Shown here in pieces: positions 3,438-3,454 of a stretch of 18,073 nt of DNA; positions within the stretch are counted from its first letter, which is position 1; the number at the start of each line of letters is the position of its first letter. The notes below the pieces were generated by a model that worked only from the letters and a program-made list of their open reading frames with translations, had not been told where the DNA came from and searched no databases. The stretch covers positions 1 through 18,073 of the IMG/VR virus record IMGVR_UViG_2690316325_000011, one strand, 5' to 3'. This DNA comes from a virus (lineage: Duplodnaviria > Heunggongvirae > Uroviricota > Caudoviricetes). The translations under genes and the position numbers were made by a program.

Positions 3438-3454
3438 ATTGCTCTAATTAATTT
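3438..3454 (+). promoter_or_regulatory. Candidate C1-repressor-type operator (P1 Op-like) overlapping the probable ssb promoter
   Basis: ATTGCTCTAATTAATTT matches the 17-bp asymmetric P1 C1 operator consensus ATTGCTCTAATAAATTT (as I remember it) at 16 of 17 positions. It lies about 20 bp upstream of the ssb start and overlaps a TAATTA -10-like hexamer (3445..3450). Confidence 0.5.

What the first reader, a model, noticed from the sequence alone, without database searches (positions are those of the whole stretch)
3438..3454. C1-type repressor operator upstream of ssb
ATTGCTCTAATTAATTT is a 16/17 match to the P1 C1 operator consensus as I remember it and overlaps the probable -10 of the ssb promoter. 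That would place ssb under lysogenic repressor control and supports a P1-family origin for the region.
Basis: partly seen in the sequence, partly recalled or inferred. Interest (0 to 1): 0.45.

Follow-up and report, generated by a model that had tools for sequence, protein, structure and literature searches.

The report
Known P1 repressor operator before ssb
The 17-base site is the already described binding site (Op21, also called Ossb) of the phage P1 lysogeny repressor C1 in front of the phage's ssb gene, found here in a P1-like plasmid-prophage fragment identical to P1 at this spot, so it is real but ordinary.

Summary
Window 3438-3454 (+) reads ATTGCTCTAATTAATTT, a 16/17 match to the P1 C1 operator consensus ATTGCTCTAATAAATTT. 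I re-derived that consensus from 20 operators annotated in the P1 genome and also found it stated in the literature. It is the only such site in the window and lies far above chance.

Window 94-13653 is a P1-like (Punavirus) phage-plasmid segment. The 101 bp around the site are 100% identical to phage P1. There, GenBank annotates these 17 bases as Op21/Ossb, a "monovalent C1-controlled operator", directly downstream of the -10 of the ssb promoter P2ssb (Pr21).

The operator abuts that -10 rather than overlapping it. It should cover the transcription start.

The 11-base core ATTGCTCTAAT is invariant in eight P1-like elements. One is Cronobacter phage JK004, whose lyz-ssb spacer is otherwise about 40% identical and whose C1 is 77% identical.

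No c1 gene lies in the 18 kb window. A closely related plasmid (98% identical over 94% of the window) encodes a C1 differing from the P1 c1.100 protein at one residue, plus about 20 operators.

Verdict: already known, correct interpretation, low interest. In passing, an IS100 end interrupts the portal gene at the window's left edge.

The parts
3438..3454 (+). C1 repressor operator Ossb (former Op21), ATTGCTCTAATTAATTT. It is a single (monovalent), asymmetric 17-bp site.
   Evidence: Sequence read. It is 16/17 to the consensus. It is 100% identical in a 101-bp context to P1 21015-21031, annotated 'monovalent C1-controlled operator Ossb; former Op21'. It scores 25.2 bits on a leave-one-out matrix. 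The core is invariant in 8 P1-like elements.
3409..3437 (+). Sigma-70 promoter P2ssb (former Pr21). The -35 is TTGTTA at 3409-3414, the spacer is 17 bp, and the -10 is TACATT at 3432-3437. The expected transcription start lies about 7 nt downstream, inside the operator.
   Evidence: Coordinates transferred from the P1 annotation (20986-21014) over the identical sequence. Each hexamer matches 4/6. This totals 8/12, below the 9/12 threshold of the consensus scan, which reported nothing here.
3444..3471 (+). Predicted second sigma-70 promoter P1ssb. Its -35 (TCTAAT, 3443-3448) lies inside the operator, and its -10 is TAAGAT at 3466-3471.
   Evidence: Transferred from the P1 annotation (21020-21048), where it is labelled 'predicted'. 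It was not found by the consensus scan.
3458..3466 (+). Ribosome binding site of ssb (TTATTAGGT).
   Evidence: Transferred from the AF125376.2 annotation, 5703-5711.
3474..3962 (+). ssb gene, with a GTG start, encoding a 162-aa single-stranded DNA-binding protein. This is the gene controlled by the operator.
   Evidence: ORF listed. Pfam SSB PF00436, E = 7e-40. It corresponds to P1 ssb 21051-21539.
3392..3410 (-). Lpa-dependent late promoter LPlyz, reading leftward into lyz. The -10 is at 3392-3397 and the -22 box at 3402-3410. The -22 box overlaps the -35 of P2ssb by 2 nt.
   Evidence: Transferred from the P1 annotation, 20969-20987. The -22 box region is the second conserved island in the alignment with Cronobacter phage JK004.
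2748..3305 (-). lyz, the endolysin gene transcribed divergently from ssb.
   Evidence: ORF listed. Pfam Phage_lysozyme, E = 2e-22. It corresponds to P1 lyz 20325-20882.

Best explanation
The 17-mer is the Op21/Ossb operator of a P1-like plasmid-prophage.

In the lysogenic (plasmid) state, one molecule of the C1 repressor, encoded elsewhere on the replicon, binds this asymmetric site. Binding is helped by the co-repressor Lxc (Bof).

The site begins at the base after the -10 hexamer of the ssb promoter P2ssb. It therefore spans the expected transcription start and also contains the -35 of a predicted second promoter. Bound C1 sterically blocks RNA polymerase, and ssb stays silent.

When C1 is inactivated by Coi or by the Ant antirepressor, ssb is derepressed together with the other C1-controlled early genes (repL/kilA, ban, dmt, lpa, ref and others).

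What is shown here: the sequence, its identity with the annotated P1 operator and promoter, its conservation, and the co-occurrence of C1 with the operator set in relatives. What is inferred: C1 occupancy and repression in this particular element, the transcription start position, and the occlusion mechanism. These rest on published work on the identical P1 sequence.
For: - Exact sequence and 16/17 consensus match.
- Consensus verified from 20 annotated P1 operators and from PMC8546580.
- 101 bp around the site are 100% identical to P1.
- GenBank AF125376.2 annotates the site as 'operator 21 (Op21); binding site for the major P1 repressor protein C1'. AF234172.1 annotates it as 'monovalent C1-controlled operator Ossb', directly after the -10 of P2ssb/Pr21. 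P7 has the same annotation.
- Leave-one-out matrix score of 25.2 bits, against a shuffle maximum of 19.6.
- Plasmid NZ_LR882054.1 (98% identical over 94% of the window) encodes C1 (282/283 identical to the P1 c1.100 protein), Coi, Ant and an 82-aa ORF at the position of lxc (inferred from position and size). It has 20 sites of at least 14 bits, including this 17-mer upstream of ssb.
- Phylogenetic footprint in Cronobacter phage JK004, whose C1 is 77% identical. Its lyz-ssb spacer is about 40% identical outside two islands, yet the operator core ATTGCTCTAAT is 11/11 identical. Its own c1 region carries operators of the same motif.
- In 8 P1-like elements the 11-nt core is invariant. Changes occur mainly at positions 12-14 (JK004 also differs at 16), which are among the most variable positions of the motif in P1.
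- Lysozyme homologues outside P1-like contexts have neither an adjacent ssb nor the motif in that position.
- From my own knowledge, since the papers are not held in the library: Citron, Velleman and Schuster 1989 (J Biol Chem 264:3611) identified Op21 as a C1 binding site. Lehnherr et al. 1999 (J Bacteriol 181:6463) reported ssb-P1 to be completely repressed in lysogens by the P1 immunity proteins.
Against: - No c1 gene lies in the 18 kb window, and the source replicon could not be identified. Presence of the repressor in this element is therefore inferred from relatives.
- The element carries an IS100 insertion in the essential portal gene, so it may be a decaying prophage.
- The ssb promoter is weak by consensus (8/12) and was not called by the simple promoter scan.
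- The transcription start is not mapped in anything I could read.
- From my own knowledge, Bendtsen et al. 2002 (J Virol 76:9695) reported ssb-P1 transcription essentially only in stationary phase. C1 is therefore probably not the only control.
Confidence: 0.93

Rival explanations
1. The operator is a relic. The sequence is the genuine Op21/Ossb orthologue, but in this host the P1-like element is defective and may have lost or inactivated c1. The site would then be unoccupied, and ssb would be constitutively open or regulated only by host factors.
For: - Window 1-93 is the end of an IS100kyp element, and P1 homology starts at codon 121 of the portal gene prt.
- prt is essential for P1 plaque formation (PMC10695390).
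- c1 is not in the window.
- The GenBank records of two close relatives (vB_EcoM-813R1 and 673R5) show c1 split into two ORFs.
Against: - Loss of C1 in a P1-like plasmid derepresses the kilA/repL lytic replicon and the late activator Lpa, which should be lethal or destabilising. This follows from established P1 biology. Defective plasmid-prophages are therefore expected to keep c1.
- The operator and all 101 surrounding bases show no decay.
- About 500 plasmids in PLSDB keep this region at 92-100% identity.
Confidence: 0.05
2. The conserved 11-nt core is kept because it is a promoter element of ssb, and C1 binding there is incidental. It would serve as the transcription start region of P2ssb, or TCTAAT would serve as a -35 or -10-like hexamer.
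For: - TCTAAT inside the site is annotated as the -35 of a predicted promoter P1ssb.
- By my own comparison, TCTAAT matches the -10 consensus TATAAT at 5 of 6 positions.
- The site lies at the expected start of P2ssb.
Against: - The same 11-nt core recurs at about 20 places in P1 and in NZ_LR882054.1, in differing geometry relative to promoters: over a -35, over a -10, between them, or downstream. That fits a protein-binding motif and not one promoter element.
- GenBank annotates Op21 as a C1 binding site. From my own knowledge, the underlying experiments are those of Citron et al. 1989.
Confidence: 0.015
3. The site is a chance AT-rich match with no function.
For: The intergenic region is AT-rich, and the 3' half of the motif is of low complexity.
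Against: - Expected number of hits within 3 mismatches is 0.07, and only this one is found, at 1 mismatch.
- It scores 25.2 bits against a shuffle maximum of 19.6.
- It is the exact orthologue of an annotated operator.
- The core is invariant in a relative with about 40% spacer identity.
Confidence: 0.005

Closest known systems
Bacteriophage P1 operator Op21 / Ossb (GenBank AF234172.1 21015-21031; AF125376.2 5683-5699; M25412)
   Same: The 17-mer is identical, as are 101 bp of context. The position is the same: between the divergent lyz and ssb genes, directly after the -10 of P2ssb/Pr21 and 19 nt before the GTG start of ssb.
   Different: Nothing differs at the site itself. The surrounding element differs from P1 elsewhere. 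It has an IS100 in prt. It lacks IS1 and isaB and carries a different 364-aa ORF in their place. Its invertase and tail-fibre region also differ.
Phage P7 Op(ssb) (AF503408.1 24773-24789)
   Same: The 17-mer is the same and carries the same annotation, 'monovalent C1-controlled operator; controls expression of ssb'.
   Different: Two substitutions lie downstream of the operator, near the ribosome binding site, and there is a 1-nt indel far upstream.
Other monovalent C1 operators of P1 (Oc4/Op51, OrepL/Op53, Odmt/Op68, OpmgT/Op88, Olpa/Op94, Oref/Op2a)
   Same: They share the same asymmetric 17-bp motif with the invariant-like core ATTGCTCTAAT, each next to or over a sigma-70 promoter of an early gene.
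   Different: This site has T at position 12, shared with Oref, Orlf and Oppp. The placement relative to the promoter also differs. OrepL overlaps the -10, Oref lies between the -35 and -10, Olpa and Odmt overlap the -35, and here the site lies just downstream of the -10.
Cronobacter phage JK004 ssb-upstream site ATTGCTCTAATAATTAT
   Same: It occupies the same position upstream of ssb, has the same 11-nt core, and the genome encodes a C1 homologue that is 77% identical.
   Different: It is not annotated. The 3' half differs, matching the window site at 14/17 ungapped (my count from the two 17-mers). The spacer around it is about 40% identical.

Membership tests
P1-type C1-controlled operator | Asymmetric 17-bp sequence matching ATTGCTCTAATAAATTT. 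| tested here: met
   16/17 match. The consensus was re-derived from 20 annotated operators and is quoted in PMC8546580. The leave-one-out matrix score is 25.2 bits, within the range of the annotated P1 operators, most of which score about 15-27 bits.
P1-type C1-controlled operator | Positional orthology with a mapped P1 operator (Op21/Ossb, between lyz and ssb). | tested here: met
   Window 3390-3490 is 100% identical to P1 20981-21081, and the P1 feature 21015-21031 maps to 3438-3454.
P1-type C1-controlled operator | The site overlaps or adjoins a sigma-70 promoter of the controlled gene. | tested here: inconclusive
   By annotation transfer, the -10 of P2ssb (3432-3437) abuts the site and the -35 of the predicted P1ssb lies inside it. 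The independent consensus scan called no promoter, because the hexamers match 8/12 against a threshold of 9/12.
P1-type C1-controlled operator | The cognate C1 repressor is encoded on the same replicon. | not testable with these tools
   There is no C1 homologue in the 18 kb window (tblastn), and the source replicon was not found. The feature is met in relatives. NZ_LR882054.1 encodes C1 at 282/283 identity. Among 50,697 phage records, C1 homologues occur in 21, all P1, P7 or P1-like by name.
P1-type C1-controlled operator | Part of a dispersed set of roughly 20 operators on the replicon. | tested here: inconclusive
   Only this one site lies in the window, as expected, because P1 itself has only Ossb in the corresponding 17.6-31.8 kb interval. 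The related plasmid NZ_LR882054.1 has 20 sites of at least 14 bits.
P1-type C1-controlled operator | Physical binding by C1 and C1-dependent repression of the downstream gene. | not testable with these tools
   This has been published for the identical P1 sequence (Citron et al. 1989; Lehnherr et al. 1999). I cite these from my own knowledge, as the papers are not held. The GenBank annotations reflect the finding.
Punavirus (P1-like) phage-plasmid region | Collinear gene order prt-pro-lydE/D-lyz-ssb-isaA ... hxr-ddrB-ddrA-darA-hdf-lydB-lydA-lydC at high nucleotide identity. | tested here: met
   Window 94-13653 is about 97% identical to P1 17671-31836 and 98.7% identical to vB_EcoM-813R1. The ORFs match the P1 genes.

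The most novel reading that the evidence does not exclude
The most novel reading not excluded is this. The element is a portal-disrupted, non-inducible P1-like plasmid, and the C1-Ossb circuit has been retained for the benefit of the plasmid or host. The position-12 T variant of the operator would set a lower C1 affinity, letting ssb escape repression under particular conditions such as stationary phase. That would give the cell a conditionally expressed second SSB. Nothing in my data argues for this beyond the IS100 insertion and the conserved non-consensus T.
Probability: 0.05. Interest if true: 0.25.

Novelty: already known. Interest (0 to 1): 0.06.

Why it matters
The result matters little beyond annotation. 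It confirms that this contig is a fragment of a P1-like phage-plasmid. It also allows the ssb regulatory region to be annotated by direct transfer from P1: operator Ossb/Op21, promoter P2ssb and late promoter LPlyz.

The only modest added value is the phylogenetic footprint. The 11-nt operator core is invariant from E. coli P1-like plasmids to Cronobacter phage JK004, while the surrounding spacer has diverged to about 40% identity. This independently supports functional constraint on C1 control of ssb across the family.

Tried and rejected
- Source replicon. I tried to identify it so that c1 could be checked directly. The searches of complete E. coli genomes and of PLSDB that included the first bases of the window matched only from base 94 onward. 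An exact search for the IS100-prt junction in IMG/VR found nothing. I tried to read Lobocka 2004, Lehnherr 1999 and Bendtsen 2002. None is held, so statements taken from them are marked as my own knowledge.\n- Promoter scan. The consensus promoter scan of 3250-4100 found no sigma-70 promoter at its 9/12 threshold. It therefore gives no independent support for P2ssb.\n- Divergent Lyz homologues. Those in Serratia, Hafnia, Rahnella, Sodalis, Enterobacter and Pseudomonas are not in P1-like contexts, with no adjacent ssb and no operator in that position. They serve only as negative controls and do not extend the footprint.\n- Weak matrix hits. I considered whether the weaker hits in the window (10-11 bits, at 5063, 16116 and 16594) could be further operators. 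I rejected this because they lie below the mean shuffle maximum of 12.1 bits.\n- A chance match was considered and rejected.

Full report
**Observation.** Window 3438-3454 on the + strand reads ATTGCTCTAATTAATTT. A search with ATTGCTCTAATAAATTT allowing up to 3 mismatches on both strands finds only this site, at 1 mismatch. Shuffles of the window predict 0.07 such hits.

**Is the recalled consensus right?** I fetched the fully annotated P1 genome (AF234172.1) and extracted the 20 features annotated as C1-controlled operators. Their majority consensus is exactly ATTGCTCTAATAAATTT.
- The first 11 positions are nearly invariant. Positions 12-14 and 16-17 are the most variable.
- T at position 12, the one deviation here, occurs in 5 of the 20 operators.
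- PMC8546580 independently states that P1 has 22 C1 operators with the asymmetric 17-bp consensus ATTGCTCTAATAAATTT.
- A weight matrix built from the other 19 operators scores this site at 25.2 bits.
  - The next best site in the window scores 10.9 bits.
  - The maxima of 200 shuffles average 12.1 bits and peak at 19.6.

**What the region is.**
- Window 2900-4400 is 96.9% identical to P1, and 96.5-99.1% identical to the P1-like phages that cover it in full.
- Window 94-13653 is collinear with P1 17671-31836 at about 97% identity.
- Window 94-4000 is 100% identical to many E. coli plasmids of roughly 97-120 kb.
- The 101 bp from 3390 to 3490 are 100% identical to P1.
- In AF125376.2 the 17 bases are annotated 'operator 21 (Op21); binding site for the major P1 repressor protein C1'. 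They are preceded by 'promoter of ssb-P1' and followed by the ssb-P1 ribosome binding site and coding sequence.
- In AF234172.1 they are 'monovalent C1-controlled operator Ossb; corresponds to former Op21'. P7 carries the same annotation.

**Anatomy in window coordinates (transferred from the P1 annotation).**

| Feature | Coordinates | Strand | Note |
|---|---|---|---|
| lyz | 2748-3305 | - | endolysin |
| LPlyz late promoter | 3392-3410 | - | reads leftward into lyz |
| P2ssb -35 (TTGTTA) | 3409-3414 | + | former Pr21 |
| P2ssb -10 (TACATT) | 3432-3437 | + | 17-bp spacer |
| Operator Ossb | 3438-3454 | + | the finding |
| P1ssb -35 (TCTAAT) | 3443-3448 | + | predicted; lies inside the operator |
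| Ribosome binding site | 3458-3466 | + | |
| P1ssb -10 (TAAGAT) | 3466-3471 | + | predicted |
| ssb (GTG start) | 3474-3962 | + | Pfam SSB, E = 7e-40 |

The operator starts at the base after the annotated -10 and should cover the transcription start. P2ssb matches the consensus at only 8 of 12 positions, and the simple scan did not report it.

**Repressor.**
- A tblastn search with P1 C1 finds nothing in the window. That is expected, because c1 lies about 20 kb away around the circular P1 map (about 72 kb along the linear record).
- I could not identify the source replicon.
- Plasmid NZ_LR882054.1 covers 94% of the window at 98% identity. It encodes 'phage repressor protein C1', 282/283 identical to the P1 c1.100 protein, together with Coi and Ant. 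An 82-aa ORF sits at the position of lxc, which I identify by position and size only.
  - The matrix finds 20 sites of at least 14 bits on it, at positions mostly matching the P1 operators. One is the identical 17-mer upstream of ssb.
- Among 50,697 phage records, C1 homologues occur in only 21, all P1, P7 or P1-like by name.

**Conservation as a test of function.** Cronobacter phage JK004 is a distant P1-like phage whose C1 is 77% identical.
- Its lyz-ssb spacer aligns with the window at about 40% identity outside two islands (40/102, 9/22 and 8/19 columns).
- The operator core ATTGCTCTAAT is 11/11 identical, and the full site reads ATTGCTCTAATAATTAT.
- The LPlyz -22 box / P2ssb -35 island is also kept.
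- JK004's own c1 region carries three sites of the same motif.
- In an alignment of eight P1-like elements (the window, P7, four plasmids, a draft E. coli genome and JK004) the 11-nt core is invariant. Substitutions fall mainly at positions 12-14, which are among the most variable positions across the P1 operators.
- The 101-bp region occurs in 500 PLSDB plasmids at 92-100% identity.
- Lysozyme homologues in non-P1 contexts have neither an adjacent ssb nor the motif in that position.

**Mechanism.**
- Shown here: the sequence, its orthology with the P1 operator, the promoter geometry by annotation transfer, its conservation, and the co-occurrence with C1 and the operator set in relatives.
- Inferred from published P1 work (my own knowledge, since the papers are not held):
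  - C1 binds Op21 (Citron, Velleman and Schuster 1989).
  - ssb-P1 is completely repressed in lysogens by the immunity proteins (Lehnherr et al. 1999).
- Because the site spans the expected start of P2ssb and contains the -35 of the predicted P1ssb, bound C1 most likely excludes RNA polymerase. Inactivation of C1 by Coi or Ant releases ssb with the other early genes.
- ssb is non-essential for P1 plaque formation in a CRISPRi screen (PMC10695390).
- ssb is listed among the replication and processing genes whose induction was followed at 10 and 20 min after P1vir infection (bioRxiv 10.64898/2025.12.28.696737).

**Rivals.**
- A chance match is excluded.
- Conservation for promoter function alone is unlikely. 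The same core recurs at about 20 sites in different geometry relative to promoters.
- The one live alternative is that the operator is intact but idle because this element is defective. Window 1-93 is the end of an IS21-family IS100kyp element. P1 homology begins at codon 121 of the portal gene prt, which is essential. Loss of c1 would, however, derepress lytic replication and killing functions, so even defective P1 plasmids are expected to retain it.

**Verdict.** It is an already known, annotated element (P1 Op21/Ossb) in a P1-like plasmid fragment. Interest is low.

Noticed in passing
window 1-97: The first 93 bases are 100% identical to the end of the IS21-family element IS100kyp (the istB end). 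P1 homology starts at base 94-95, which is codon 121 of the portal gene prt. The essential portal gene is therefore interrupted, or the contig was broken at this IS. The element may be a defective prophage.
   Followed up: partly
window 4955-6073: P1's IS1 and isaB are absent. In their place is a 364-aa ORF (4946-6040) with no Pfam hit. It is shared with other P1-like plasmids, for example NZ_LR882054.1 23349-24443. P1 homology resumes at hxr.
   Followed up: partly
window 13477-14366: A 59-codon remnant of P1 cin with an in-frame stop lies on the + strand (13477-13653). It is followed by a complete serine invertase, 74% identical to Cin, on the opposite strand (13785-14366). Collinearity with P1 ends at 13653.
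   Followed up: partly
window 14429-18036: There are several tail-fibre C-terminal cassettes and a tail-fibre assembly gene (Pfam Phage_fiber_2, Collar, Caudo_TAP). A repeated 17-mer, ACCCCACTAATAAATTG, occurs at 16116 and 16594. The arrangement looks like a multi-cassette invertible host-range region, unlike the two-cassette P1 C-segment.
   Followed up: no
L021 1501-2324 (ON470617.2) and L022 1501-2324 (ON470615.2): In the GenBank records of vB_EcoM-813R1 and vB_EcoM-673R5, c1 is split into two or three ORFs and aligns to P1 C1 in two pieces at 88% and 65% identity. The Oc1 operators next to it are intact. The cause could be sequencing frameshifts or real c1 defects.
   Followed up: no
L003 2628-2645 (AF234172.1 Omat): The P1 GenBank feature for operator Omat is given on the minus strand with 18 nt. 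The motif (CATGCACTAATAAATAT) actually reads on the plus strand at 2628-2644, so this is a small annotation inconsistency.
   Followed up: yes
L003 1485-1501 and 17166-17182 (AF234172.1): Two un-annotated operator-like sites in P1 score 17.5 and 16.5 bits: ATTGCTATAATTATTTG upstream of c8, and ATTGCCCTAATGTATTT within the 5' end of darB, shortly before the prt late promoter. Both positions recur in NZ_LR882054.1. They may account for the literature count of 22 operators against the 20 annotated.
   Followed up: no
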